A stretch of DNA of 57,909 bases, from positions 1 to 57,909 of the forward strand of contig JAYTKW010000022.1 in the NCBI GenBank assembly GCA_043729945.1, in the 5' to 3' direction. This document shows, one piece after another, positions 1,437 to 52,230 of the stretch. The position numbers were made by a program, and so were the translations under genes. How positions within the stretch are numbered: the first letter of the stretch is position 1; each line of letters begins with the position of its first letter. Source of the DNA: Candidatus Kaiserbacteria bacterium. Lineage in GTDB: Bacteria; Patescibacteriota; Minisyncoccia; Phycocordibacterales; UBA918. Under the pieces are notes generated by a model that searched no databases, was not told the origin of the DNA, and saw only the letters and a list, made by a program, of their open reading frames with translations.

Positions 1437-1444
1437 CTGTTCAA

Positions 1445-1480
1445 TAAAATAACCACCCTGAAAGGGGTGGTTATTTTATT
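1445..1480 (+). terminator. Hairpin plus T-run after tRNA-Gly
   Basis: AAAATAACCACCC-TGAAA-GGGGTGGTTATTTT. Confidence 0.6.
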
Positions 1481-1486
1481 GGTACA

Positions 1487-1622
1487 GTGCGGAGTGCAGC
1501 AACCTGCTAGTAGCAGGTTGCGCAGGGAATCGAAGCCCGATTGAGCTGGATTGGAAGCGCAGCGCACCAATCCAGCCAATTGGGGTACTGAAGTCGTAGA
1601 CTTCGATTCCCTGCACCCGCCC
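1487..1622 (+). other. Structured element E1 ending in an exact 19-nt copy of the tRNA-Gly 3' end (candidate ncRNA, att-like site or MITE)
   Basis: 1602-1620 is identical to 1417-1435 (TTCGATTCCCTGCACCCGC). 1522-1535 (GCAGGGAATCGAAG) is the reverse complement of 1601-1614. It contains a 9-bp hairpin (1499-1521), a 10-bp hairpin (1545-1576) and a 6-bp hairpin (1590-1604). Confidence 0.45.
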
Positions 1623-5910: not shown

Positions 5911-7398
5911 TTGTTTTCTATGAAAACCATCACCCTTAAAAACGTTAGTAAATCACTGGCACAAAAGACGTTATTTAGTGGTGCGTCGCTTTCGATCGGG
6001 CAGCGTGATCGGGTGGCAATTATTGGGAATAACGGGGCTGGGAAAAGTACTCTACTCAAAATCATGGCAGGTATTGAATCGGTTGATGAAGGAGAAGTGT
6101 TGGGTAATCAGTCCGTTGCCTACATTGCCCAAGAATTTGGTGGGGATATGTCCCGAACGGTAGCCGAGTATCTGGCAGCGCAAAAGGTAGTTGCCAATAT
6201 ACATGCGATTATCAAAAAGTTTGGCATCATCAGTCCGCAATTGATGGAACAGGGAACGTTGTCTGAACTCTCGGGTGGGCAGTTGCGGGCTCTCGAAATC
6301 GCCGCAGTTATATCGCGCGGGCCGATGTTTCTCTGTATTGATGAACCGGAAAACCATCTCGATATTAAAGCCCGGCACGTTGTCACTGAATTACTGCGGG
6401 ATTATTGGGGGGCGGTCATTATGGTCTCTCATGATCATACGCTGATAAATAACCTGACCAAGAAAATAGTTTTGATTGAACACGAGGCGGTGACAGTTAC
6501 AACGGATCTGACCTACGAGGAGCTCGTTGAGGAGCGACTGCGGCGGCAAGATCTGGCACAGCATGAGTATCTGATGGCCAAACGGAAACTAACAAAAATG
6601 ACGAATCTCGTCACCGAGTTACGAAGGCAAACCACCTTTAGTGACAGTAAAGCCAAAACCTACCAAATGAAAAAGCGTCAGCTGGCGGTGGATCAGGAAG
6701 CTATTGATACAATGGTGAGGCCGGATACTCGAAAGCCCGAAGTTCGCATCGGGGACGTCGAGCAAAAGAACGGGAAACTCATTGTGCAGTTACATGACGT
6801 CAGTGGTGGCTACGGCGCCACGCCGCTGTTTTCAAAAGTAAACCTAGATATTCGGTTTGGGCAGAAACTCTGTATTGTAGGGCGTAATGGCGCCGGCAAG
6901 ACGACACTCCTCGGGCTCATTACGGGAGCGGTGGCTCCATTGTCTGGAGTAGTCCGCAGGGGAGTGTCTATTACGACCGTAGTATTTAGCCAACAGAGTG
7001 AAATGATACTCGAACATACGCCGTTTGAGTTGTTTGCCACTATTGGGATTTCCAAAGACCCGGCCCGATCAATCCTCAGTCGACTCTTATTTTCCAAAGC
7101 AGAAATGGATATGATTGCTGAACGCTTATCGGGGGGTCAAAAGCAACGACTCCGTTTGGCGCTACTGTTTTTTGCGAAACCGGATTTTATTATTTTGGAT
7201 GAACCAACGAATAATCTCGATCCAATCAATTGGCAGTTTCTAGTTGAGCTCCTGACGGAGTTCGAGGGGACAGTCATCTGTGTGACCCATGATCAGTCGT
7301 TTATCGAGTCGATTGATGAGTTACTGATTTTTGTGCTCGCAAAAAAGACGGTCACACGCGTATGGGGTACGGTCGACGAGGCGATTGCTCTATTATAG
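5911..7398 (+). CDS. ABC-F family ATPase (two ABC domains, no TM domain)
   Basis: Walker A GNNGAGKST and GRNGAGKTT; signatures LSGGQ (twice); Walker B IDEPENHLD and ILDEPTNNLD. Confidence 0.85.
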   Translation: MFSMKTITLKNVSKSLAQKTLFSGASLSIGQRDRVAIIGNNGAGKSTLLKIMAGIESVDEGEVLGNQSVAYIAQEFGGDMSRTVAEYLAAQKVVANIHAIIKKFGIISPQLMEQGTLSELSGGQLRALEIAAVISRGPMFLCIDEPENHLDIKARHVVTELLRDYWGAVIMVSHDHTLINNLTKKIVLIEHEAVTVTTDLTYEELVEERLRRQDLAQHEYLMAKRKLTKMTNLVTELRRQTTFSDSKAKTYQMKKRQLAVDQEAIDTMVRPDTRKPEVRIGDVEQKNGKLIVQLHDVSGGYGATPLFSKVNLDIRFGQKLCIVGRNGAGKTTLLGLITGAVAPLSGVVRRGVSITTVVFSQQSEMILEHTPFELFATIGISKDPARSILSRLLFSKAEMDMIAERLSGGQKQRLRLALLFFAKPDFIILDEPTNNLDPINWQFLVELLTEFEGTVICVTHDQSFIESIDELLIFVLAKKTVTRVWGTVDEAIALL

Positions 7399-7401
7399 AA
7401 T

Positions 7402-8469
7402 TTATAAAAAAGCTACGTCTAACAGTGCTTCTTTGACCTTGTTAAAAGCACCCGCATCCATTGGTCGGTGGGGGTAGATTCTGTTAGAGAGGATAGCAAA
7501 TCCCCTATGATTTTTTAGGTCAGCTGACATAAAACAGCCTGTAAAGCCGCTCTTTACCACCATCTCTCTATGGTACGTATCTATTAAGATATTATTCAAA
7601 TCCCCCCATCCAATAGGTGTATGGGTTGGCAAAAGTTTTGGGTAATAGTCCTCGGTCCATTTTGAAACAATAGTGCTGCTAAAGATTGGTTTTTTATTGT
7701 ATTCACCGCCGTGCAAGGCTACTTTCAAGAATTGAGTTATATCATTTATTGAAGCAAATAAACCAGCGGCCCCATTTGAAATCCCTCCCTTAGTGGTATA
7801 GAAAGTGAATTCATCATGTACAAAGCCCCTCACCTCACCGCGATCGTTCGTCAGTTCAGTAGGTGGTATTAAGGACTTGGTTTTTGATGAGGGAAAAAAT
7901 GTAGCCGTGGACATTTCAAGTGGGGTAAACACATAGTCTTTCACTAGAGTATAAAAATTTTCACTTGTAACACGTTCTATTATTTGAGTAAGTATAAAAG
8001 CCGTAATATTAGAATACATGTAGTTCGTACCCGGCAAGGCTTTTAAAGGGTATGACAAAGCATTGTGAGCAACTTGTTCAGGCGAGAGAGTCCCAAACAA
8101 AGATTTAGAGCCACCAGGAATGTTGTAGTCCATCGTATACGTCATAAGATGTGATAATAACGCCTCCCCTTTTTCTGGTTGGTTTACGAATTCAGGTAAA
8201 TACTTACTTATTTTCTCATCTAAATTTAAGATACCTTTATCTATTAAAATCATAGCAACCGCCATTGGGGCTATAATTTTAGTCAGAGATGCGCAGTCGT
8301 ATATCGTTGAAGTATGGACCTGGCTAGCATTGAGTTCATATGTAAAATGACCATAACCTTGGGAAAAGCAAGTGTCTTCGTTTAGAAATACAATTGAACA
8401 TCCAGGGAATACCTTCGAAGCGATAGCGGTTTCAATTATTGCTTCAAATTGTTTTATTTTGCTAGGCAT
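7402..8469 (-). CDS. Serine hydrolase of the class C beta-lactamase / PBP-like family
   Basis: 355-aa ORF with an SxxK motif (SLTK) and a YxN motif (YSN). The DNA is AT-rich. Confidence 0.7.
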   Translation of the reverse strand: MPSKIKQFEAIIETAIASKVFPGCSIVFLNEDTCFSQGYGHFTYELNASQVHTSTIYDCASLTKIIAPMAVAMILIDKGILNLDEKISKYLPEFVNQPEKGEALLSHLMTYTMDYNIPGGSKSLFGTLSPEQVAHNALSYPLKALPGTNYMYSNITAFILTQIIERVTSENFYTLVKDYVFTPLEMSTATFFPSSKTKSLIPPTELTNDRGEVRGFVHDEFTFYTTKGGISNGAAGLFASINDITQFLKVALHGGEYNKKPIFSSTIVSKWTEDYYPKLLPTHTPIGWGDLNNILIDTYHREMVVKSGFTGCFMSADLKNHRGFAILSNRIYPHRPMDAGAFNKVKEALLDVAFL

Positions 8470-27818: not shown

Positions 27819-28939
27819 TGTGTATGAAATCAATTGTTGATTGTCCGGAACTACGAGGAAAGTATGTCTTGGTGCGCTCATCGTGTAACGTGCCAGTCAC
27901 AGACGGAGTCGTACAAAATGCCTATCGGTTAAAACGAGCCCTTCCCACCCTCCAATTTTTACACGCTGCCGGCGCCCGCGTGATTGTAGTAGCCCACATT
28001 GGTCGTGACGAATCCGATACTCTGAAACCAGTCTACGAGGTTTTTTTGAATTTGATCGGGGTGCAGTGGGGAGGATCAATCGGGAGTGCCGAGTTTACCG
28101 CCGCTTTGTCTCGTTTGGCTGACGGAGACATTGTCATCGCCGAAAACCTCAGACAAGATCCCCGTGAAGTCGGTAACGACGCTGGATTTGCCGCAGAGCT
28201 TGCTGCGCTCGCTGATATCTACGTTGATGATGCCTTTGATAATATCCACCGGGACCACGCGTCGATGGTCGGTGTGCCAGCGCTCTTGCCTGCCTATGCC
28301 GGCATTACCCTCAAGGAAGAAGTGACCGAACTAACGAAAGCCATGGAACCAGCTTCCCCAGCCCTCCTCATTTTAGGTGGAGCTAAATTTGAAACTAAAA
28401 TGCCGCTCGTTGAAAAATATCTCGATTTGTATGATAACGTTTTTGTAACAGGGGCGCTCCTTAATGATATCCTCAAAGCCGAAGGACACGAGGTCGGGCA
28501 GTCACTCGTATCTGACATTTCACTCAAAGGTGCAGATTTCCTCTCGAGTGCGAAATTAATTCACGCCATTGATGTGGTAGTAACAAGCGACCGCGGTATG
28601 CGAACGGCGAGCATTGATGACGTCCAGTCTGACGAAAAAATTACCGACATGGGACCGCTCACGATTGGCGCCCTAGCCCCGTACATAAAAGACGCTGCCA
28701 CCATCCTCTGGAATGGACCGCTTGGACTCTATGAGTCTGGTGTCGCCGGAGGTACTCACGCCGTGGCGAAACTGATTGCTGACGCTCCAGGGTATAGTAT
28801 CATCGGCGGCGGGGACACCGTAGCCGCGATTGAAGATTTAGGGCTCAATGATCAGTTTGGGTTCGTCTCAATTGGTGGTGGCGCGATGCTTACCTTGCTC
28901 GAACATGGGACTACCCCCGCCCTCGAAGCCCTCGAGTAA
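27818..28939 (+). CDS. pgk: Phosphoglycerate kinase
   Basis: 373 aa with the PGK N- and C-domain pattern (GGAKF, GGGDT). The start overlaps the tpiA stop (TAATG). Confidence 0.88.
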   Translation: MCMKSIVDCPELRGKYVLVRSSCNVPVTDGVVQNAYRLKRALPTLQFLHAAGARVIVVAHIGRDESDTLKPVYEVFLNLIGVQWGGSIGSAEFTAALSRLADGDIVIAENLRQDPREVGNDAGFAAELAALADIYVDDAFDNIHRDHASMVGVPALLPAYAGITLKEEVTELTKAMEPASPALLILGGAKFETKMPLVEKYLDLYDNVFVTGALLNDILKAEGHEVGQSLVSDISLKGADFLSSAKLIHAIDVVVTSDRGMRTASIDDVQSDEKITDMGPLTIGALAPYIKDAATILWNGPLGLYESGVAGGTHAVAKLIADAPGYSIIGGGDTVAAIEDLGLNDQFGFVSIGGGAMLTLLEHGTTPALEALE

Positions 28940-28940
28940 A

Positions 28941-29230
28941 ACTTCCATAAACGGCGAACTTCGTCGTTGCCCGTCGGTAAAATACTCCTCACCGTGAGAA
29001 AGTCTGGGAGACTTTCGCAAGAGGTTGTCGCTCTTTTGAAAAAAAGAGCGACAACCTGAACAGCTTCTGTAAGAAGCGGAAAGTACGGCTCGTTCTATTT
29101 TCCTTTCTCCTCTGACAGCGGCTGTACACCTTGTCACTTATTTGTTTCGGTATTTACCTCACAAATAAGTAGGCAAGGTCTTGCGGAAGCTAGTCGCTTC
29201 CTCACTCGAATTTCACTCATTTCTGAAAGT
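28941..29230. mobile_element. MITE-like element copy carrying a nested second repeat type inside its central loop
   Basis: The termini (ACTTCCATAAACGGCGAAC / TTTCACTCATTTCTGAAAGT) match those of 25425-25541. The core CTCACCGT...GTACGGCTC is split by about 90 nt that is homologous to 47936-48030. Confidence 0.6.
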
Positions 29231-44708: not shown

Positions 44709-45398
44709 ATGGATGCTAAATACTTAGTGTCCAGTAAAACAAGGAGAAGAGTTATGAAAGTGATTACTTGCGGAGCTGCCTTTGATCCCTCTCAAGAATG
44801 GTGGAAATCTGTTGCTAGCACAACAAATCATCAACAGTTGATGAGTGTTTTAAAAGAGGGGGAAAACTACCACGTGGCAATTATTGATAGCGTTGTTGGC
44901 GGGGTTTGTTTAACAAAGGAGCTATCGTGTTTTAAGCGAGAGGTGCCGCAAACTATTTTTTTCGTGCGGTTCATAGGTTTGTGTCCCGATGCCATCCTTA
45001 AGTCGCTGCTGACTTTAGGGATTGATGGATACCTCATGGATAGTCCTTCATTTGAAACTGTTCAAGGACTTTACTCCCTGCGGTCTAATATCTTGACTGT
45101 CAATCTGGCCGACGGAAAGCAATTGCTCCTGTCAGAAAAAACAATTTCGTGTGACCAGGCAAAAATAAGGGTTACAGCAACAGAAGCTTTACTTCTCAGA
45201 CGACTTATCTTGTCTCAAGGCCGGCCGGTCACTAGTAAAATGTTACAAGTTGTACTCGGATATAATTCGATTGCCCGAACCCAGACCGTACGTTCTCATA
45301 TTGAGAGAATTAGAAAGAGGGCCTATGAAGCCGGTTTTCCGAGCATCATCGGCACACAGCCAAAAGCAGGATACTACATTGAGTGTCCGGCCGCTTGA
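44709..45398 (+). CDS. OmpR/PhoB-type winged-helix DNA-binding protein with a degenerate receiver-like N-terminal domain
   Basis: The C-terminus is Trans_reg_C-like: TATEALLLRRL...TVRSHIERIRKRA...GYYIE. The N-terminal acidic pocket is not evident. Confidence 0.6.
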   Translation: MDAKYLVSSKTRRRVMKVITCGAAFDPSQEWWKSVASTTNHQQLMSVLKEGENYHVAIIDSVVGGVCLTKELSCFKREVPQTIFFVRFIGLCPDAILKSLLTLGIDGYLMDSPSFETVQGLYSLRSNILTVNLADGKQLLLSEKTISCDQAKIRVTATEALLLRRLILSQGRPVTSKMLQVVLGYNSIARTQTVRSHIERIRKRAYEAGFPSIIGTQPKAGYYIECPAA

Positions 45399-45404
45399 AG
45401 CAAC

Positions 45405-45440
45405 CTGAGGCAAGCCAGCCGGCTTGCCTCAGTTTCATTT
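45405..45440 (+). terminator. Terminator after the wHTH gene
   Basis: CTGAGGCAAGCC-AGCC-GGCTTGCCTCAG-TTTCATTTT. Confidence 0.65.
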
Positions 45441-45529
45441 TAAAGTTTGTTTTAACTCCATTGAGTCAAGAGTGGCTGTAGTTTAAGAATCTTGTGAATA
45501 CAACTACAGAAAGGATTTTTGGACAGAAC

Positions 45530-45874
45530 TTATTTGCCAGCCGTTTTATTTTTTTGTAATTGTATGTCTCCTGCCCGAATAATTGTAAACATAAGGTTAT
45601 TAATTGCGTTATATAATTCTCTTTCTGAGGTCTCTAAGATGAGTGAACTGTAATCAGGAGTGATAGCTTCTTGAATCAGTCGGATTTTCTCAATGGTATT
45701 ACTTTTATCGAGCTGTTCAGTAGGTGTCAAATTCGGAGTATTATTAGTAAGAAACTTGAATCGTTCTGGTTCTAGACAGCGGCGAGCAAATTCTAAATCT
45801 TCGGGATTACATTCTGCTTTTAAGCGTTCTTTTACAATCGGTCGTTCAAATCTATTTTTCATAATATCAATCAA
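45530..45874 (-). CDS. Hypothetical protein
   Basis: 114-aa ORF in AT-rich DNA. No family recognised. Confidence 0.4.
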   Translation of the reverse strand: MIDIMKNRFERPIVKERLKAECNPEDLEFARRCLEPERFKFLTNNTPNLTPTEQLDKSNTIEKIRLIQEAITPDYSSLILETSERELYNAINNLMFTIIRAGDIQLQKNKTAGK

Positions 45875-45898
45875 GTTAAAATCATTTATGTAATCAGC

Positions 45899-46249
45899 TT
45901 ATGCACTGGCGCCGTCGAAGTCGTTTATTTTAATATTTGAGAGATCAAAACCCTCGAGGCAGTTGAGGTTAATCATGTACATGTAATTACCGTTACCATC
46001 ATGACCGTATCCGTATGATTGAACACCACACGTTTTACAAAATGTGTGATTAATGTGGTGTTTGTTAAAGTGGTAAGTTGTCTGTGCATCAACACCACGT
46101 AGTAAAGTAAAATCAGTAACCGGCGCAAAAGCCAGTAAGAAGCCTTTGCGTTTACAATGTGAACAGTTACAGCGCATGGCTTCGGTAAATTCCCCGTTTA
46201 CGGTATATGCTACTGCGCCACAATGGCAACTGCCAGTATATGTTTTCAT
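45899..46249 (-). CDS. GFA-family (CENP-V/glutathione-dependent formaldehyde-activating-like) zinc protein
   Basis: CHCGAV and CNCSHC cysteine motifs; 116 aa. Confidence 0.75.
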   Translation of the reverse strand: MKTYTGSCHCGAVAYTVNGEFTEAMRCNCSHCKRKGFLLAFAPVTDFTLLRGVDAQTTYHFNKHHINHTFCKTCGVQSYGYGHDGNGNYMYMINLNCLEGFDLSNIKINDFDGASA

Positions 46250-46317
46250 AATTGCATCATATCATAAGTAAATATTATGTCAGTAAATTTGGTTATAGAA
46301 TTAGTCTGTATGTTAAG

Positions 46318-46755
46318 ATGAAACTAATGGAAAAGATGCCGAAAAAGGAAAAACGGGAGGTAATTTCACTCGTGGAGCAGAAGCGGGTAGAGGCTTTGAC
46401 GGCGGTGCTAGATGAGCTAGATACCCGTTTGCCCGCTGCACCAAAACGTTCGTTTGAATCAAATGGACGTGAGTACGCTCTGACATCGGCCGAAGACTGC
46501 ATGTTAGCTTTTGCTCAACAAAACCGCGAAGCCGTCTCTGCGCTTTATACTGAAATATTGTCGCGTGATGATTATCGGGCGGAACAGGCAATGGTAAAAC
46601 TTTTAAAGTTATTTGAAGCCTACGAGCGAACTGTGGCGCTTTATGCAGAATTAGTCAGCTACTATCCAACAGCGGCCGCACGCGTGACCGTAAAGCTCCC
46701 ACCATTGTCTGAAATCGCCCGTCATGGTGCCCGGATGTGGGACAATATTAAATAA
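46318..46755 (+). CDS. Hypothetical helical protein
   Basis: ORF trimmed to MKLMEKMPKKEK. No family recognised. Confidence 0.4.
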   Translation: MKLMEKMPKKEKREVISLVEQKRVEALTAVLDELDTRLPAAPKRSFESNGREYALTSAEDCMLAFAQQNREAVSALYTEILSRDDYRAEQAMVKLLKLFEAYERTVALYAELVSYYPTAAARVTVKLPPLSEIARHGARMWDNIK

Positions 46756-46795
46756 CATATCGTTGGTAATAAATTTGTAACTGTTCTTTTAAAAT

Positions 46796-47866
46796 ATGAC
46801 AATCGACTTTGATGCTGAAATTGTTGCTCACCTCGAGCAAGTTCGTCGGCTGCAAAAACCGTCGGGCGTTTTTACTGCCTCTGCCCATGATGTAGCCACT
46901 GGGTATGACAAAGCTTGGCTCCGGGATATTTACTTTATGACGCTAGGTTTCCTCGAAACTGGAGAAATTGAGGTGGTGCAAAAGGCTGCTCGAGCGCTGC
47001 TCGAAGTATTTGTTAAACACGAAGCCAAAATTAGTTGGGCGATTGAGTATCGTCCGCACGAAACCTGGCAGCGTATTCACGCTCGTTTTCATCCAGAAAC
47101 TTTTGAAGAATACTGGGAAGAGTGGGGAAATAGTCAGAATGATGCCGTGGGTGAGGTGTTAAATATTATCGTTGAACTAGAAATTCGTGGTGCCAGTGTT
47201 GTTGAAACGGCAGAAGAACAAGCGGTGGTGCAAAAAATTATTGACTATTTGGTGGCGCTCGAATATTGGCAAGATCCTGATAATGGTATTTGGGAAGAGA
47301 ACATGGAAGTGCACGCTTCGTCTGTGGGATCGTGTATTGCGGCACTCCAAAAAGCGGCGCAGATACCGTGGCTTATCGTCCCTGACGGCGCCATCACGCG
47401 CGGAGAGCAAGCACTGCGAGCGTTATTGCCCCGTGAATCAAAAAGTAAGTTTGCTGACCTGGCACTACTGTCCCTGATTTATCCTTTTGCTGTCACTACA
47501 CCAGAAGAAACAGAAACAATTTTACGGAACGTTGAATATCATCTGACCCGTGAGCGCGGCGTGATTCGTTATAAATTTGATCGCTATTATAATCAAAATG
47601 AAGACGGATACAGTGAAGAAGCCGAATGGTGCTTTGGTCTATCGTGGCTCGCGATTATTTATGCAGAGCGAGGGGAGAGTGAGAAAGCTTGGTACTATCT
47701 CCGTCGCGCTAAAATGACTGTCACCCCAGCCGGCCAGGTGCCTGAACTTTACTATTCTCATACTGACATTCCCAATGACAACACCCCATTGGGTTGGGCC
47801 GAGAGTATGTACGTTGTTGCTCTACAAAAAGTAAAATTATTGGAAGCAGAGTCGAATCGGAAATAA
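46796..47866 (+). CDS. Glycoside hydrolase family 15-like protein
   Basis: AWLRDIYF and GIWEENMEVHASSVG motifs; 356 aa. Confidence 0.6.
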   Translation: MTIDFDAEIVAHLEQVRRLQKPSGVFTASAHDVATGYDKAWLRDIYFMTLGFLETGEIEVVQKAARALLEVFVKHEAKISWAIEYRPHETWQRIHARFHPETFEEYWEEWGNSQNDAVGEVLNIIVELEIRGASVVETAEEQAVVQKIIDYLVALEYWQDPDNGIWEENMEVHASSVGSCIAALQKAAQIPWLIVPDGAITRGEQALRALLPRESKSKFADLALLSLIYPFAVTTPEETETILRNVEYHLTRERGVIRYKFDRYYNQNEDGYSEEAEWCFGLSWLAIIYAERGESEKAWYYLRRAKMTVTPAGQVPELYYSHTDIPNDNTPLGWAESMYVVALQKVKLLEAESNRK

Positions 47867-47893
47867 TTGCCGTACTCATACGTAGTAGTAAGT

Positions 47894-47935
47894 ATGACAA
47901 AAACAGCTATTTTCGCAGGAGGATGTTTCTGGGGT
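47894..47935 (+). repeat. Exact 42-nt duplicate of the msrA start (ATG plus 13 codons), running into a stop after 16 codons
   Basis: Identical to 48048-48089. Reads MTKTAIFAGGCFWGEQ*. Confidence 0.9.
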
Positions 47936-48047
47936 GAGCAGTGACTAAATGTCACTGCGCAAGAGGTTACCAGCTCGTTTGAAAAACGAGCGATAACCTG
48001 AACAGGTTCTGTAAGAACTGGAAGAGCTTGTAATGCAATAAAAATCT
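47936..48047. repeat. 112-nt repeat-type insert (same family as the nested segment at about 28995-29090)
   Basis: CGCAAGAGGTT..hairpin..AACCTGAACAGGTTCTGTAAGAACTGGAAG aligns with CGCAAGAGGTT..AACCTGAACAGCTTCTGTAAGAAGCGGAAAG. Confidence 0.7.
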
Positions 48048-48539
48048 ATGACAAAAACAGCTATTTTCGCAGGAGGATGTTTCTGGGGTATGGAAGACCT
48101 CTTTCGGGATCTCCATCCCGGCATCCTAACTACCGAAACGGGTTACACCGGTGGTACCAATGAAAACCCTACCTACGAAAATCATCCCGGCCATGCCGAA
48201 GCATTACTGGTGGAGTATGATGATGCAAAAATTGCGTACACAGAATTACTAGATTTCTTTTTCCGAGTGCATAATCCCACCACCCTTAATCAGCAAGGAA
48301 ACGACCTGGGCACGGCTTATCGTTCAGCGATTTTTTATCAAGATGAAAGCGAACGCGTAGCCGCTGAATTATTTATTGATCTGGTAAATGAATCAGCTCG
48401 TTGGGAGGCTCCTGTAGTCACCACGCTCGAACCGTTCACTAGATTCTGGTCAGCCGAAGACTATCACCAAGATTATTTACAAAAGAATCCACATGGATAT
48501 ACCTGCCACGCAATTCGATTTGAGAGCTATTTAGTGTAA
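48048..48539 (+). CDS. msrA: Peptide methionine (S)-sulfoxide reductase
   Basis: GGCFWG active-site motif; 163 aa. Confidence 0.9.
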   Translation: MTKTAIFAGGCFWGMEDLFRDLHPGILTTETGYTGGTNENPTYENHPGHAEALLVEYDDAKIAYTELLDFFFRVHNPTTLNQQGNDLGTAYRSAIFYQDESERVAAELFIDLVNESARWEAPVVTTLEPFTRFWSAEDYHQDYLQKNPHGYTCHAIRFESYLV

Positions 48540-48655
48540 TTTTGGAGTATAGGGATGGCTAAACCTTACAGGTTCTGTCCACTCATTGGACTTTTTATCT
48601 CGCTTCGCTCATAAAAATCCTCAATGAGTCTTGCGAAATGCTCCCAGCATTTCTC

Positions 48656-48694
48656 ACCTGCCATGCCATCAGGTTTGATAGTTATTTAACCTAA
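48656..48694 (+). pseudogene. Diverged duplicate of the last 12 codons of msrA plus the stop
   Basis: TCHAIRFDSYLT* versus TCHAIRFESYLV* at 48501-48539. 29/39 nt are identical, and most differences are at third codon positions. Confidence 0.75.
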
Positions 48695-48737
48695 AGTTAG
48701 CAAGACAAGGTGGGTGAAACTGTTGTATTATATAGAT

Positions 48738-49310
48738 ATGTTAAAAACCATCTATGTACTAATTGGTATGGCATTACTGGCAGCTGGTATCAAGTTCTGG
48801 CTTTTGTCTCAGGCTACGATAGGTATGCCAATTGAAGAAACTGCTATGTGTACGATGGAAGCTCGGCAGTGTCCAGACGGTTCGTACGTGGGCCGCACTG
48901 GGCCTAAATGTGAATTCGTTTGTCCGCCTACTCCTGATTTTGTAACCACTATGACAGCGGAGATTGCCGCCAAAGCAGATGTTATTACTGTTGCAACACC
49001 ACTCATAATGAATGAAGTTATTTCACCCTTGACTGTCATAGGGGAAGCGCGCGGGTGGTGGTTCTTTGAAGGCAGCTTTCCGGTGATGTTAACTGATTGG
49101 GATGGGATGGTAATCGCTAGTGGGGTGGCTACGGCACAAAGCGATTGGATGACTGAACAATTTGTTCCCTTTGAAGCCACTCTCAACTTTACCAGCCCAT
49201 ATATTGCTGGTTTTAAGGAAAACGGTAAATTGATTTTGAAAAAAGATAACCCCTCTGGACTGCCCGAAAATGACGACTCACTGGTTGTTCCAGTGAGATT
49301 TGCACCCTAG
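48738..49310 (+). CDS. Membrane-anchored Gmad2-like immunoglobulin-fold protein
   Basis: GEARGWWFFEGSFPVMLTDWDG pattern with an N-terminal TM helix. Confidence 0.55.
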   Translation: MLKTIYVLIGMALLAAGIKFWLLSQATIGMPIEETAMCTMEARQCPDGSYVGRTGPKCEFVCPPTPDFVTTMTAEIAAKADVITVATPLIMNEVISPLTVIGEARGWWFFEGSFPVMLTDWDGMVIASGVATAQSDWMTEQFVPFEATLNFTSPYIAGFKENGKLILKKDNPSGLPENDDSLVVPVRFAP

Positions 49311-49507
49311 GGGCTGTCCCTCATGCTGGCTCTGTCGTATAATAGATATATTACAAACATAATGTATACCAACGTGTAATTAATTCTTTTGCATTTTTGT
49401 TACTCATTAATCAATACCACTATGGCCAAAGGCGAACTGCGACATAAAAAAGAAGCAAAAAAACCAAAGAAAGAAAAAATCAAAGACATCTTGATTTAAT
49501 TAAAACC

Positions 49508-49531
49508 ACCCACCCACCCACCCACCCACCC
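49508..49531 (+). repeat. Tetranucleotide microsatellite (ACCC)x6 forming the left arm of a terminator hairpin
   Basis: Counted directly. The right arm is GCTGGGTGGTTGG, followed by TTTTT. Confidence 0.9.
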
Positions 49532-49596
49532 AGCTATCTCGGTAGCTGGGTGGTTGGTTTTTGTTATACTAGATATATACCCAGTAATAAATTTTT

Positions 49597-50199
49597 ATGA
49601 AAAACATCTATTTGATAATTGGAGTTTTAGTGATTGGTGTTGTAGCGTTTTACCTGTGGCGTGGCGATTTGGTGCCCGAGACTGATGTAAATGTGCTTAA
49701 TACCCCAGCTGTAGATGAGATATCTGCGGTGCCAGAAGAACCCGAAACACTAACCGGTAGTGATACCTTTGCTAATTTGTTTAAATTGGGCCGGACTCTA
49801 GAATGTACTTTTACCTTTAAGGATGATGAGATTGCTACTGCCGGCACGGGATTTTTTGAGGGCACTAACATGCGAGTTGATTCAATGTACGTAGGTGATG
49901 ACAAAACAACTTATACTTCTAATATGATTAGTGATGGTGCAATGATGTATCTTTGGTCAAAAACAGCAGACGGTGATATGGCTGTAAAAATGGCTGTACC
50001 CAAAGACGGGGTGACCAGTAATACCGAACCGGTTGATCAGTCTCGTGGTGGTTTGAATCCACAATCCAAAGTGACCTATGATTGCAAGCCATGGATTGTC
50101 GACGGTTCAGTCTTTGTGCCACCAGCTGATTTAGATTTTATGGACATGACGGCCATGCAAAATAAAATGATGGGTGCGCCACCTCTACCCAGACAGTAA
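49597..50199 (+). CDS. Hypothetical membrane-anchored or secreted protein
   Basis: 200 aa with an N-terminal TM helix IYLIIGVLVIGVVAFYLW. Confidence 0.5.
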   Translation: MKNIYLIIGVLVIGVVAFYLWRGDLVPETDVNVLNTPAVDEISAVPEEPETLTGSDTFANLFKLGRTLECTFTFKDDEIATAGTGFFEGTNMRVDSMYVGDDKTTYTSNMISDGAMMYLWSKTADGDMAVKMAVPKDGVTSNTEPVDQSRGGLNPQSKVTYDCKPWIVDGSVFVPPADLDFMDMTAMQNKMMGAPPLPRQ

Positions 50200-50349
50200 T
50201 GCTGTACTGCAATAATTAATTTAGCTGTACACAGTTGCTGTGAAGACAGATTATCTGTTGTGGGGTAGACTATAAATAACAGGAGGCCGACACCCATTAC
50301 GGGTGCCGGTCTTTCCGTTGTATTAATAAAGTAGTTCTCCACAAAAACC

Positions 50350-52230
50350 ATGTTTAATAAATCAGTTGTCCAAACCAAAACCCAAATCGCCAGTCTCATC
50401 TTCGCCTGTGCGCTAGCTGTTATTAGCTTTAGTAGTTTAGCGACCGTGGCAGGCGCGCAGCAGAATCCGGCAGAAAATACATTGTCTGCTCTGCAGGCGC
50501 AAATTGCTTTGTTGATGGCACAGATTGCCGCCCTGCAAGGCGGTGGTACAACTACACCACCACCCACGTCATCTCCGGCAAAAGTTTTTGCCGTTGGTGC
50601 TTCCGTTCAGCCGACAGCGAATATTAGAGTGCGTACTCAGCCTGGTCTGACTAGCCCGATTATCGGCACCGAGAATATCAGTAGTAGAGGCATAGTCTCT
50701 GCTGGACCAGTAAAAGAAGGTGGCTATAACTGGTACAAAGTTGATTTTAAAGCCGGTTTTAGTGGCTGGGTGACAGGTTGGTGGTTACAAGCTGCTACTG
50801 CAAACCTTGATCAATATAATTGTGTACCGGGCACTTCATGTCCAGGAAGCGTTTTGGATAGTAATTTACAGCCTTCAGTAAAAGAAATTTCTAGTATTGC
50901 CCAGAAAGACAGTAGATTTGCAGGTTCAAAGGGTATTTCTATAATTGGTAGTTTTGAAGTAGAAATCACTGCTCAAGATAGCCCGCTTTATGTGAATCCA
51001 AATACATTTAATATTTTTCCTTCTGTTGGTGAAAAATCATCCGCCACAGATAATCCAATGCTCTCGAAAACAGTTACGAGTAATGCACAAAAAAGTGGTG
51101 TGTATTACTTTGTTGGTGAGGGAGAATCTAGAACGTTCAAAGTCACGTATGAGTATTTTCCCCGTGAAAAAGGCACATACGTAATGATTATGCAAAATTT
51201 TGATTTTGCAATCACAGCAGTGGGTCGACCATTCACTCATGAACTTTATCCAAATCGTCCCCAGTCAAACGAAGTTCTGTATTTTTCTGAACCAACAACC
51301 TTGCCGTACGTAACAATCACAAATATCACCAGTGGCTTGATGCCAATTATTTCTGGAAATACTGAAGAGCGTGTTACTACGCTTGGTCTCTCAATCGCGG
51401 GTCCTTCAGGAGATAAAGTGTACGGTAGTGGTGTCATTCCAGTAACGAAAGGTAAATGGTCGCATATAGTAGGTACTGCATTGCCAAATGGTATCAACGA
51501 AGTTGTTGTCTATGCAGATAAAAAAGAAGTTGCTCGTAAGAAATTTAATGTTGGTGAGCCAGTTCCTGTAGTAAAACCAACGCCGCGATTTAATGGAGTG
51601 ACTTATCCAGTAGGTACTTCAGTAGCTGCAGTATCAGCGGTGTTTGCTTCACCAAAGACTCCTTCAACAGGGCCAGTTATCATTGGATACATTAAATGGG
51701 GTGAAGCCGGTACCGCAACCCAAACTGTGTCAGCGATTCCTGCCGGTACTCAAACAACGGTTGAACTAAAACATACTTACAAAACTGCTGGTGATTACCT
51801 CATTACCCTCATTGGTCTTGACGGAAAACTTGTGACCCAAAAAGTTACCGTTACCCTGCCGCCGGTAGCAGTAGCTCAACCCACTTGTACTCTCACGGCT
51901 ACTCCAGCTAACATTAGAGCCGGACAGCCTGTTACTTTGACCTGGACAACGACCAACGTAAAAACTGCTTCAATCAATAATAGTATTGGTGTCGTAGCGC
52001 CCAAAGGGACAAAGATTGTGACTCCCGGCAAAACTACCACTTATCAACTATTGGCTGTATCGGCAACTGGTGTCGCTGTCACTTGTGTGAAATCAGTAGC
52101 AGTACTAGCAATGACTACGGCTGCAGCCTCTTCAACTGGTCTCGTTAAAGGTGCGGCCACGGTGGATCATTTAGCCGAAATTCAAGTTACCCTAACAAAT
52201 ATCCAAAAGATTTTGTCTGAGCTAGAATAG
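50350..52230 (+). CDS. Secreted protein with a bacterial SH3-like domain and Ig-like repeats
   Basis: Signal-like N-terminus. The SH3b-like segment is ANIRVRTQPGLTSPIIG...GYNWYKVDF. The C-terminal half is beta-rich. Confidence 0.55.
   Translation: MFNKSVVQTKTQIASLIFACALAVISFSSLATVAGAQQNPAENTLSALQAQIALLMAQIAALQGGGTTTPPPTSSPAKVFAVGASVQPTANIRVRTQPGLTSPIIGTENISSRGIVSAGPVKEGGYNWYKVDFKAGFSGWVTGWWLQAATANLDQYNCVPGTSCPGSVLDSNLQPSVKEISSIAQKDSRFAGSKGISIIGSFEVEITAQDSPLYVNPNTFNIFPSVGEKSSATDNPMLSKTVTSNAQKSGVYYFVGEGESRTFKVTYEYFPREKGTYVMIMQNFDFAITAVGRPFTHELYPNRPQSNEVLYFSEPTTLPYVTITNITSGLMPIISGNTEERVTTLGLSIAGPSGDKVYGSGVIPVTKGKWSHIVGTALPNGINEVVVYADKKEVARKKFNVGEPVPVVKPTPRFNGVTYPVGTSVAAVSAVFASPKTPSTGPVIIGYIKWGEAGTATQTVSAIPAGTQTTVELKHTYKTAGDYLITLIGLDGKLVTQKVTVTLPPVAVAQPTCTLTATPANIRAGQPVTLTWTTTNVKTASINNSIGVVAPKGTKIVTPGKTTTYQLLAVSATGVAVTCVKSVAVLAMTTAAASSTGLVKGAATVDHLAEIQVTLTNIQKILSELE

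What the first reader, a model, noticed from the sequence alone, without database searches (positions are those of the whole stretch)
47894..48694. msrA is nested between duplicated copies of its own 5' and 3' ends, separated by ~112-116-nt repeat-type DNA
The layout is [42-nt exact copy of the start codon plus 13 codons, 47894-47935], [112-nt repeat-family insert], [intact msrA, 48048-48539], [116 nt with long hairpins and a partial match to the same family], [last 12 codons plus stop of a diverged msrA, 48656-48694]. The 3' fragment has 10/12 identical aa but only 29/39 identical nt, with mostly third-position changes. The 3' fragment therefore derives from a different msrA allele that evolved under purifying selection, whereas the 5' duplicate is recent or homogenised. 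This could reflect a repeat-flanked msrA cassette landing in, or replacing the interior of, a resident msrA. Alternatively, the element may carry gene-end copies that restore the target ORF.
Basis: seen in the sequence. Interest (0 to 1): 0.65.

Follow-up and report, generated by a model that had tools for sequence, protein, structure and literature searches.

The report
Mobile hairpin element splits msrA ends
The intact msrA gene of this Parcubacteria genome lies between two opposite-facing copies of an apparently undescribed 85-100-nt three-hairpin mobile element, and each copy sits inside a short leftover copy of the gene's own end, a layout this element repeats at tRNA, 5S rRNA and other genes across the candidate phyla radiation.

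Summary
An exact 43-nt repeat of the msrA start and a 29/39-nt copy of its last codons flank an intact msrA, in several independent assemblies. Both "inserts" belong to one family, here called E. The 3' one is a full member on the minus strand, not a partial match. E has three hairpins with conserved linkers (GUGAG-P1-GCAAGA-P2-UGNACAG-P3, loop CUGUAAG) and strong covariation. It has no Rfam match and is widespread in Patescibacteria.

The layout [gene-end stub with E inside] - spacer - [intact gene] recurs at msrA in relatives, with either side alone. It also recurs at a GH1 gene, a dehydrogenase gene, many tRNA genes and 5S rRNA. E replaces exactly 3 nt at purine-run|GNN sites. E also occurs nested in another E, as a filled/empty pair between related genomes. 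One co-occurring allele lacks the 154-nt 5' unit.

Stub and intact ends differ mainly at third codon positions, so they look like two alleles, not a decayed local duplicate. Best reading: E is a non-autonomous mobile element. Its insertions near gene ends persist as stub-plus-E units, lost (shown) and probably gained (inferred) by recombination through the gene-end homology. How the duplication first arises, and which enzyme acts, are unknown.

The parts
47840..47867 (+). Promoter-like site (TTGGAA-16-AATAAT) upstream of the outer 5' stub. It is the likely native msrA promoter; no such site lies in the spacer before the intact gene.
   Evidence: consensus scan only; weak evidence
47893..47933 (+). 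Outer 5' stub: T plus the first 40 nt of msrA (ATG...TTCTGGG). It is identical to 48047-48087 and reads as a 16-codon ORF that stops at a TGA inside the element.
47934..48019 (+). Element E3, 86 nt, sense to msrA. Layout: GTGAG - P1 (CAGTGAC/GTCACTG) - GCAAGA - P2 - TGAACAG - P3 (loop CTGTAAG). It takes the place of GTA, which is present at 48088-48090 in the intact copy.
   Evidence: 84.6 bits, E 4e-21
48019..48028 (+). Short inner arm of the 5' stub: TGGAAGAGCT. It continues the old gene; compare TGGAAGACCT at 48091-48100 in the intact copy.
   Evidence: (repeat D9)
48029..48046 (+). Spacer between the 5' stub and the intact gene. It shows no similarity to the native upstream DNA.
48048..48539 (+). 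Intact msrA, 163 aa, PMSR. The inner copy of the 43-nt repeat is 48047-48089.
48540..48554 (+). Spacer between the msrA stop codon and the 3' stub.
48555..48560 (+). Short inner arm of the 3' stub: ATGGCT(A). Compare ATGGATA at 48493-48499 of the intact gene.
   Evidence: minus strand TAGCCAT vs TATCCAT; L008 has TAGCCGT vs TAGCCGT
48561..48657 (-). Element E4, 97 nt, antisense to msrA. It has the same architecture as E3 with a longer P2. On the minus strand it takes the place of GTA (TAC at 48500-48502 of the intact copy).
   Evidence: 68.3 bits, E 1e-16
48658..48694 (+). Outer 3' stub: the last 37 nt of an msrA allele including its stop codon. With the element's AC it reads TCHAIRFDSYLT*.
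28994..29077 (+). Element E1, same family, in the pgk/HIT convergent intergenic region.
   Evidence: 79.2 bits
29108..29205 (-). Element E2, same family with a degenerate P3. It faces E1 across 30 nt.
   Evidence: 54.5 bits

Best explanation
**What E is.** E is a non-autonomous mobile element defined mainly by the fold of one strand (RNA or single-stranded DNA). It consists of three hairpins joined by conserved linkers.

**How it inserts.** It inserts in either orientation after a purine run and replaces 3 nt (GNN, mostly GYA).

**What happened at msrA.** Two independent E copies hit the gene.
- One is in sense orientation after TGGG in the GCFWG codons.
- One is antisense, 37 nt before the end of the gene.

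**Why the gene is still intact.** An insertion in the last 25-95 nt of a gene is seen only in one configuration. The interrupted end is a stub: a long arm reaching the gene end, then E, then 6-20 nt of inner arm. A second, intact gene end joins the gene body after a short spacer.

**Where the two ends come from.** Stub and intact end come from different alleles. The unit therefore travels between related genomes by recombination that uses the conserved gene end as its homology. Possible routes are single-crossover (Campbell-type) integration, or allele exchange after DNA uptake.

**How the unit is lost.** Recombination between the two copies deletes it precisely; the E3-less allele L003 is this form. 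Units whose repeats are short or diverged are the ones that last.

**Shown here:**
- the family, its fold and its spread;
- the recurring layout;
- the 3-nt replacement;
- a filled/empty nested insertion;
- the E3-less allele;
- the third-position bias.

**Inferred:**
- the single-strand intermediate;
- gain of units through gene-end homology;
- a trans-acting enzyme, which was not found;
- how the first stub-plus-intact-end arrangement arises at a new gene.
For: **Family and fold.**
- The window holds four copies.
- 127 matches were found in 100 sources, nearly all Patescibacteria MAGs.
- 96-97% of cells are paired against 70-72% in shuffles. The covariation score is 0.63-0.68 against 0.17-0.18 in shuffles and 0.06-0.16 for slid partners.
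- G.U pairs outnumber A.C pairs 42 to 10, so the sense strand is the one that folds.
- No Rfam family matches.

**Mobility.**
- L011 carries an extra E nested in the E that is orthologous to the un-nested one in L008. It sits at GCAAGA|GGT, without duplication.
- L005 has the same nesting.
- P1 hairpin types recur in up to 17 species.
- The msrA-5' elements of the window and L007 share P1 at 29/31 and P3 plus inner arm at 23/23. Their msrA third positions are only 47% identical.

**Target rule.** About 20 junctions read a|GNN|b natively and a|GTGAG...E|b in the stub.

**Layout as a family trait.**
- The upstream flank is repeated downstream in 18 of 99 copies, against 2 in the control.
- Targets include msrA 5' and 3', GH1, UDPG-dehydrogenase-like, tRNA D-arm or anticodon region in both orientations, and 5S rRNA.
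- The mirror layout also exists, so the short arm always faces the intact gene.

**Independence of the two sides.**

**Loss by repeat recombination.** L003 equals the window minus 154 nt, with 1 mismatch in 1482 nt. The depth of the bridging unitig is 50-100% of the flanks.

**Two alleles.** 45 of 68 stub/intact differences lie at third codon positions, with 35 synonymous and 18 non-synonymous codon changes. P = 6e-4 against the 0.46 expected if only one copy were constrained.

**DNA uptake genes.** ComEC and type IV pilus genes are present in the window.
Against: - No transposase, integrase or reverse transcriptase recurs next to E, and none is called in the about 27.6 kb of the window whose gene calls were read (45048-51539; about 17.8-38.9 kb; neighbours of E). 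The rest of the window was not annotated.
- About 85% of E copies have no flank duplication. The duplication is therefore not part of every insertion, and how insertion and an intact second end arise together at essential single-copy genes is unexplained.
- In the window the 43-nt copies are identical while the inner arm and spacer are not. This needs homogenisation or re-integration.
- Gain of a unit through gene-end homology has not been observed; only loss has.
- The recurrence of P1 types could reflect sequence constraint rather than horizontal spread.
- No RNA data were available.
- The alignment A2 was fitted to the model, which inflates pairing. A1 was not fitted and gives the same picture.
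Confidence: 0.58

Rival explanations
1. In-situ repair duplication. E inserts into the gene. The same event, for example replication template switching at its hairpins or break repair from a sister chromosome, re-copies the gene end locally. The stub is then a decaying pseudo-copy of the resident gene.
For: - The total stub length (long arm plus short arm) is about 40-60 nt in most cases.
- Young-looking cases exist: L115 has a 39/39 identical tRNA-derived long arm and a 13/13 inner arm, and the window has 43/43.
- Inverted as well as direct gene-end fragments occur near some copies. This is typical of template switching.
- No imported DNA need be invoked.
Against: - The third-position excess of stub/intact differences is 45/68, P = 6e-4 to 5e-3 against the expectation for one neutral copy.
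- In the window and L034 the long arm is 100% identical, while the inner arm or spacer is diverged or absent.
- Flanking non-coding parts of the repeats are more diverged than the coding or tRNA parts.
- Nested insertions make no duplication.
Confidence: 0.2
2. One reading: a composite cassette [E - msrA - inverted E] moved as one piece and replaced the interior of a resident msrA, leaving its two ends outside.
For: - In the window the two elements are inverted with respect to each other, with their P3 ends facing the gene.
- A second inverted pair with almost nothing between lies at 28994-29205.
- The stubs look like another allele.
Against: - Relatives carry only one side: L007 has the 5' unit; L008 and L011 have the 3' unit.
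- L005 stacks units on one side.
- L003 lacks only the 5' unit, with all else identical.
- The same one-sided layout occurs at tRNA, 5S and GH1 genes.
- The two elements of the pair are unlike in sequence, so they are not terminal inverted repeats.
Confidence: 0.06
3. E is chiefly a host-useful structured RNA, such as a leader or trailer processing, stability or termination signal, or a self-cleaving ribozyme that frees the mRNA from the stub. It is kept by selection at each locus, and mobility is secondary.
For: - E shows strand-specific pairing (G.U 42 vs A.C 10).
- About 25 linker and loop nucleotides are conserved.
- The element starts exactly at the junction with the stub, as 5'-cleaving ribozymes of retroelements do.
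- Orthologous copies keep their structure through compensatory changes.
- E3 lies in the msrA leader, downstream of the only promoter-like site.
Against: - Orientation relative to neighbouring genes is about random: 21 co-oriented and 17 anti-oriented in tandem gene contexts. E4 is antisense to msrA.
- Copies nest inside each other and interrupt gene fragments.
- No match to any ribozyme or cis-regulatory family in Rfam.
- No RNA data.
Confidence: 0.12
4. Assembly artefact or chimera at a repeat.
For: - Contigs do break at these elements. L215 ends 82 nt after pgk (8339-nt contig, pgk at 7136-8257). In the window the pgk stop at 28939 lies 55 nt before the start of E1, so the break falls inside E1.
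- L004 starts inside E3.
Against: - Four assemblies from different samples agree.
- Unitigs of four runs bridge copy 1, E3 and copy 2.
- Independent genomes show the same architecture with their own sequences.
Confidence: 0.01

Closest known systems
Small dispersed bacterial repeats and MITEs (Correia/NEMIS, ERIC, RUP, BOX; Rickettsia palindromic elements, which insert inside genes)
   Same: E is short, non-coding and multi-copy. It is found in intergenic DNA and gene ends, nests in itself, breaks assemblies and can fold when transcribed.
   Different: E has no terminal inverted repeats and no target-site duplication; 3 nt are replaced instead. Its three hairpins keep their fold through compensatory changes rather than by sequence identity, and its modules are swapped between copies. 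The gene-end stub plus intact end signature is, to my knowledge, not described for these families.
Integrative elements that enter a gene end and supply a replacement end (e14 and phage 21 in icd; islands in tRNA/tmRNA genes; integrase-less CIME remnants)
   Same: Direct repeats of a gene end flank the inserted DNA. The working gene end and the displaced end differ like two alleles. The unit can be lost by recombination between the repeats.
   Different: The unit is only about 150-250 nt and has no integrase. 5' ends are hit as often as 3' ends. E lies inside the displaced copy, with 6-20 nt of the old gene on its inner side, and many unrelated genes are hit by one family.
Structure-defined single-strand recombination or transposition sites (integron attC; IS200/IS605-derived PATEs and REP/REPIN with RAYT)
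   Same: E shows low sequence but high structure conservation and strand-specific folding. It inserts without target duplication next to a short preferred motif, and it occurs as inverted pairs in intergenic DNA.
   Different: E has three hairpins with conserved linkers instead of one imperfect hairpin with R/L boxes or a REP stem. No IntI, TnpA(Y1), RAYT or TnpB gene was seen nearby. E replaces 3 nt.
Mobile introns and twintrons (group I/II; Euglena group III; archaeal bulge-helix-bulge tRNA introns)
   Same: E inserts at conserved sites of tRNA, rRNA and protein genes, starts GUGAG and nests within itself.
   Different: E is about 90 nt with no catalytic core and no Rfam match. Three exon nucleotides are lost and the interrupted copy is truncated. 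Function is kept by a second gene end, not by splicing.

Membership tests
MITE (non-autonomous DNA transposon) | Terminal inverted repeats | tested here: not met
   The 5' end is a constant GTGAG. The 3' end is the variable strand of P3, with no complementarity between the ends.
MITE (non-autonomous DNA transposon) | Short target-site duplication flanking each copy | tested here: not met
   The filled/empty pair L011/L008 and about 20 junctions show 3 nt replaced and no flanking repeat. There are no extra short flank repeats beyond the long ones.
MITE (non-autonomous DNA transposon) | A related autonomous element with a transposase | tested here: inconclusive
   No recurrent transposase lies next to 131 copies. 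None is called in the about 27.6 kb of the window whose gene calls were read. Whole genomes were not searched.
Integrative element restoring its target gene (e14/icd type, tRNA islands, CIME) | Direct repeats of the target gene end at both borders | tested here: met
   A 43-nt exact repeat and a 29/39 repeat in the window. The same holds in 18-20 other copies.
Integrative element restoring its target gene (e14/icd type, tRNA islands, CIME) | Site-specific recombinase (in cis, or in trans for CIME) | tested here: not met
   No integrase lies in the units or their neighbourhoods. Action in trans is not testable here.
Integrative element restoring its target gene (e14/icd type, tRNA islands, CIME) | The displaced end abuts element DNA directly at the crossover | tested here: not met
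   The old gene continues for 6-20 nt on the far side of E.
Integron attC site | Single imperfect hairpin with R''/L''-L'/R' boxes (RYYYAAC...GTTRRRY), next to cassettes and an intI platform | tested here: not met
   E has three hairpins with GCAAGA and UGNACAG linkers and no GTTRRRY core. No integron context is present.
IS200/IS605-derived PATE / REP-RAYT | Subterminal hairpins; insertion 3' of a fixed tetra- or pentanucleotide without duplication; TnpA(Y1), RAYT or TnpB in the genome | tested here: inconclusive
   Hairpins and duplication-free insertion fit. The target is only a purine run followed by G, and 3 nt are lost. The enzyme was not looked for genome-wide.
Group I/II or other self-splicing intron | Conserved catalytic core; precise insertion so that splicing restores the exons | tested here: not met
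   No Rfam intron or ribozyme model matches even at E <= 10. Three nt are replaced and the interrupted copy is truncated.
Any described RNA family (Rfam 15) | Match to a curated covariance model | tested here: not met
   Only tRNA, 5S, LSU and the L10 leader were found in the window and 21 loci. Nothing overlaps E or its larger version.

The most novel reading that the evidence does not exclude
E units may be homology-addressed mini-cassettes. In this reading a structured single-strand element has no recombinase gene and no fixed att site. It carries a copy of a conserved gene's end as its integration address and spreads among Patescibacteria, perhaps via their DNA-uptake machinery, always leaving the target gene whole. 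Alternatively, E may be a new 5'-cleaving ribozyme or SINE-like retroelement of bacteria. Either would be a kind of mobile element not described so far.
Probability: 0.3. Interest if true: 0.85.

Novelty: new variant of a known kind. Interest (0 to 1): 0.72.

Why it matters
- **A hidden family.** E appears to be a widespread, undescribed structured element in a very large bacterial radiation.
- **Odd annotations explained.** It accounts for duplicate gene starts, tRNA and 5S fragments, long gaps before conserved genes, and contig breaks.
- **Gene integrity.** It shows a recurrent way in which insertions into essential genes coexist with an intact gene: an interrupted stub lies next to a whole gene end.
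- **Population genetics.** Its presence/absence alleles and swapped modules give markers for recombination and gene flow in uncultured Patescibacteria.
- **Possible tool.** If integration through gene-end homology is confirmed, it suggests a simple natural design for inserting DNA next to conserved genes in these organisms.
- **Possible new RNA.** If the element acts as RNA, it is a candidate new functional RNA class.

Tried and rejected
**Searches that found nothing useful**
- Rfam at gathering and at E <= 10 on the window regions and on 21 loci: nothing overlaps E.
- The viral contig scan with the E pattern gave two chance matches without hairpins.
- RNA runs for the window and for a Rifle-site locus: none served. 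Transcription and processing of E could therefore not be tested.
- A search for a recurrent enzyme gene next to E found only housekeeping neighbours.
- The metagenome scan for msrA relatives returned mostly distant loci at 44-72% identity. Only one of 80 has E, again at the 5' site.

**Ideas considered and dropped**
- A long target-site duplication made by the insertion. The old gene continues past E, nested copies have none, and 85% of copies have none.
- An intron. Three nt are lost, the stub is truncated and there is no catalytic core.
- Translational bypassing between the two GGT codons. The same layout occurs at tRNA and 5S genes.
- A DGR-like or leader-peptide attenuator reading of the 5' copy, for the same reason.
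- An orientation-locked duplication of the 5' flank only. Mirror cases were found.

**Test that did not discriminate**
- Enrichment of GNRA-type loops does not separate RNA from DNA, because GNA triloops are also stable in DNA.
Full report
**1.

- 47893-47935 and 48047-48089 are an exact 43-nt direct repeat covering the msrA start and the GCFWG codons.
- 48656-48694 repeats the last 12 codons plus the stop of msrA at 29/39 nt and 10/12 aa.
- No shuffle out of 20000 reaches 29 matches, and there is no other near copy in the window.
- msrA (48048-48539) is an intact PMSR gene.
- The organism is a Parcubacteria-type member of the candidate phyla radiation. The closest named msrA hits are from Candidatus Parcubacteria, and the neighbours are typical housekeeping genes.
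- The layout is present in four ENA assemblies.
- In Logan unitigs of four runs, a unitig 47906-48076 bridges copy 1, the insert and copy 2.
- It is not an assembly artefact.

**2. Both inserts are one structured family, in opposite orientation**

- The 5' insert shares hairpins with a locus between pgk and a HIT gene at 28994-29077.
- Read on the minus strand, the 3' insert and a fourth copy at 29108-29205 show the same plan.
- The plan is: GTGAG, hairpin P1, GCAAGA, a long hairpin P2, TGNACAG, then a short hairpin P3 with loop CTGTAAG. I call the element E.
Nearly all are from Patescibacteria MAGs: Paceibacterota, Kaiser-, Zambryski-, Nomura-, Lloyd- and Taylorbacteria, and MAGs labelled Saccharibacteria.
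- An unfitted alignment of 43 copies gives three helices with 96.4% of cells paired, against 71.9% in shuffles. The covariation score is 0.63, against 0.17 in shuffles and 0.07-0.16 for slid partners.
- A covariance model finds exactly four full copies in the window. These are E1 28994-29077 (+), E2 29108-29205 (-), E3 47934-48019 (+) and E4 48561-48657 (-).
- The model finds 127 copies in 100 sources, with 97% pairing.
- G.U pairs outnumber A.C pairs 42 to 10, so the E-sense strand is the one that folds.
- Rfam 15 has nothing like it.
- It is absent from viral contigs except for two chance hits.

**3. The msrA layout recurs in relatives, one side at a time**

Syntenic loci (GH15 - msrA - Gmad2) show the following.
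- L007 has only a 5' unit.
- L008/L009/L010 have only a 3' unit.
- L011 has a 3' unit with a second E nested in the first.
- L005 has three msrA starts in a row, with E copies (one nested) after the first two and no 3' unit.
- More distant genomes, L048 and L136, again carry E after the GCFWG codons.
- Contig L003, from another sample of the same population, equals the window except that it lacks 154 nt, that is E3, its tail and one 43-nt copy. It has 1 mismatch in 1482 nt.
- The bridging unitig has 50-100% of the flank depth, which is compatible with a mixture of the two alleles.

The two sides are therefore independent units, and the 5' unit is polymorphic. This rules out a single msrA cassette that replaced the interior of a resident gene.

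**4. The layout is a trait of the family, not of msrA**

- The 40 nt upstream of E recur within 500 nt downstream in 18 of 99 copies. The control direction gives 2.
- Protein-gene targets are msrA, a GH1 gene (after FYWG) and a UDP-glucose-dehydrogenase-like gene (inside the GxGxxG codons).
- RNA-gene targets are many tRNA genes (after the D arm, or in the anticodon region, in both orientations), 5S rRNA and a long hairpin RNA.
- The native sequence reads a|GNN|b: GTA four times, GCA seven to eight times, plus GAA, GCG and GGT. The interrupted copy reads a|GTGAG...E|b.
- E thus replaces exactly 3 nt after a purine run. The old gene then continues for 6-20 nt before an unrelated spacer of 2-130 nt and the complete gene.
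- Mirror cases exist: complete tRNA-Phe or 5S first, then spacer, a 12-nt arm, E, and the long 3' arm. The short arm always faces the intact gene and the long arm reaches the gene end, whatever the orientation of E.
- About 85% of copies, mostly intergenic, have no such repeat, long or short.

**5. Applied to the window**

- The 5' stub is 47893-47933. E3 takes the place of the GTA seen at 48088-48090. The short arm TGGAAGAGCT (48019-48028) continues the old gene; the intact copy has TGGAAGACCT. After an 18-nt spacer the intact gene begins.
- On the other side the order is the msrA stop, a 15-nt spacer, the short arm ATGGCT(A), E4 on the minus strand, and then the last 37 nt of an msrA allele.
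- The only promoter-like site lies upstream of the outer 5' stub. msrA is therefore probably transcribed through a 16-codon stub ORF and E3. This is weak evidence.

**6. E is mobile**

- L011 and L008 share an orthologous 3' E. L011 has another E inserted in it at GCAAGA|GGT, replacing GGT, with no duplication. This is a filled/empty pair.
- L005 shows the same nesting site.
- P1 hairpins fall into discrete types that recur in up to 17 species, and P1, P2 and P3 types are combined differently in different copies.
- The msrA-5' elements of the window and L007 agree at 29/31 in P1, the one changed pair being compensated, and at 23/23 in P3 plus short arm. P2 is a different type and the spacers differ.
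- The two msrA genes are only 47% identical at third codon positions. Modules of E are therefore younger than the genomes they sit in, or are exchanged between copies.
- Orientation relative to neighbouring genes is about random (21 vs 17 in tandem contexts). That fits selfish DNA better than a cis-acting RNA.
- No transposase, integrase or reverse transcriptase recurs near E, and none is called in the about 27.6 kb of the window whose gene calls were read.

**7. Stub and intact end look like two alleles**

- Over 11 protein-gene cases, 45 of 68 differences are at third codon positions. There are 35 synonymous and 18 non-synonymous codon changes.
- That is far from the 1/3 expected for neutral change (P = 3e-8). 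It is also above the roughly 0.46 expected if the stub decayed neutrally while only the working copy was constrained (P = 6e-4).
- The non-coding outer parts of the repeats are more diverged than the coding or tRNA parts, as between orthologous regions of different lineages.
- In the window the 43-nt copies are identical while the short arm (9/12) and the spacer are not. The identity therefore reflects recent recombination, not a fresh local duplication.

**8. Best explanation**

- E is a non-autonomous element that moves through a folded single strand and replaces 3 nt after purine runs.
- Insertions close to a gene end are seen only as stub-plus-E units beside an intact gene end that comes from another allele.
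- Such units are lost by recombination between the two copies; L003 is that form.
- They are most likely gained and passed between related genomes by recombination through the same homology. Routes include single-crossover integration of a small circle, or allele exchange after DNA uptake. The window encodes ComEC and a type IV pilus.
- Units with short or diverged repeats persist. This would explain why only insertions within about 25-95 nt of a gene end are found, and why the inner arm is below the length needed for efficient homologous recombination.
- Loss, mobility, the target rule, the recurrence and the allele-like divergence are shown. Gain through homology, the nature of the intermediate, the enzyme, and the first formation of a unit at a new (often essential) gene are inferred or open.

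**9. Rivals**

- An in-situ repair duplication is simpler and fits some young-looking cases. It is disfavoured by the third-position excess and by the window's mismatch between perfect long arms and diverged short arm.
- A host-useful RNA role, including a 5'-cleaving ribozyme, is not excluded and could coexist with mobility. No RNA data could be obtained.

**10. Comparison with known systems**

- E works partly like small dispersed repeats or MITEs.
- It works partly like integrative elements that restore their target gene (e14 in icd, tRNA islands, CIMEs).
- It also works partly like structure-defined single-strand sites (attC, REP/PATE).
- It fails defining tests for each. It has no terminal inverted repeats or target duplication, no recombinase, no att-type junction, no attC boxes and no intron core.
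- I therefore file it as a new variant of the general kind "small non-autonomous structured mobile repeat". I did not find its gene-end stub signature described in Rfam or in the literature searches.

Noticed in passing
window 28994-29205: A second inverted pair of the same element (E1 plus strand, E2 minus strand, P3 ends facing, 30 nt apart). It lies between the convergent pgk and HIT genes. L032 has the orthologous pair.
   Followed up: partly
window 1438-1620: Downstream of tRNA-Gly(TCC) and its terminator lies an antisense copy of the tRNA 3' end, split by a small hairpin. Next comes an E-related half element (P2 and P3 only; 13 bits with the model). Then comes a sense copy of the tRNA 3' end (GATTCCCTGCACCCGC). 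L019 has a very similar arrangement.
   Followed up: partly
L036, L037, L044, L088, L096, L099, L124 (for example L044 minus strand around 1600-1950): A larger version of about 250-300 nt exists. A 5' module (AGCCGGAGC - hairpin - GCGAGGCGG) and a 3' module (GCGAACACTTAG - hairpin - CTTAGTAACTTGTGACC) enclose an E core. It is often found just after terminators or tRNA 3' ends, and no Rfam family matches it.
   Followed up: partly
L029, L034, L040 (tRNA genes downstream of E): The complete tRNA copies carry a long insertion in the anticodon loop that looks like a group I intron (…AAATAGCAGCC…GGTGAATTGCTGGAAA…). ARAGORN and Rfam were not run on it.
   Followed up: no
L215 (contig end) and L004 (contig start): Public contigs end or start inside E copies. 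L215 ends 82 nt after pgk, which falls inside E1. L004 starts inside E3. The element therefore breaks short-read assemblies.
   Followed up: no
window about 49.3-49.6 kb (L002 vs L001): Two assemblies of the same population differ by a 12-nt indel and 3 substitutions in 6.5 kb. The indel lies in the gap between the Gmad2 gene and the next gene.
   Followed up: no
window about 20-34 kb (locus L214): Type IV pilus genes (T2SSE, T2SSF) and ComEC lie in the same window, together with RecJ and a small RNase H-like (RVT_3) gene. The DNA-uptake machinery is relevant to the proposed exchange of units.
   Followed up: no
L062 minus strand about 6840-7170: A 94-nt long-hairpin sequence of unknown identity is duplicated around an E copy. 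The two copies differ by compensatory changes in the stem, so it may be an unannotated structured RNA gene.
   Followed up: no
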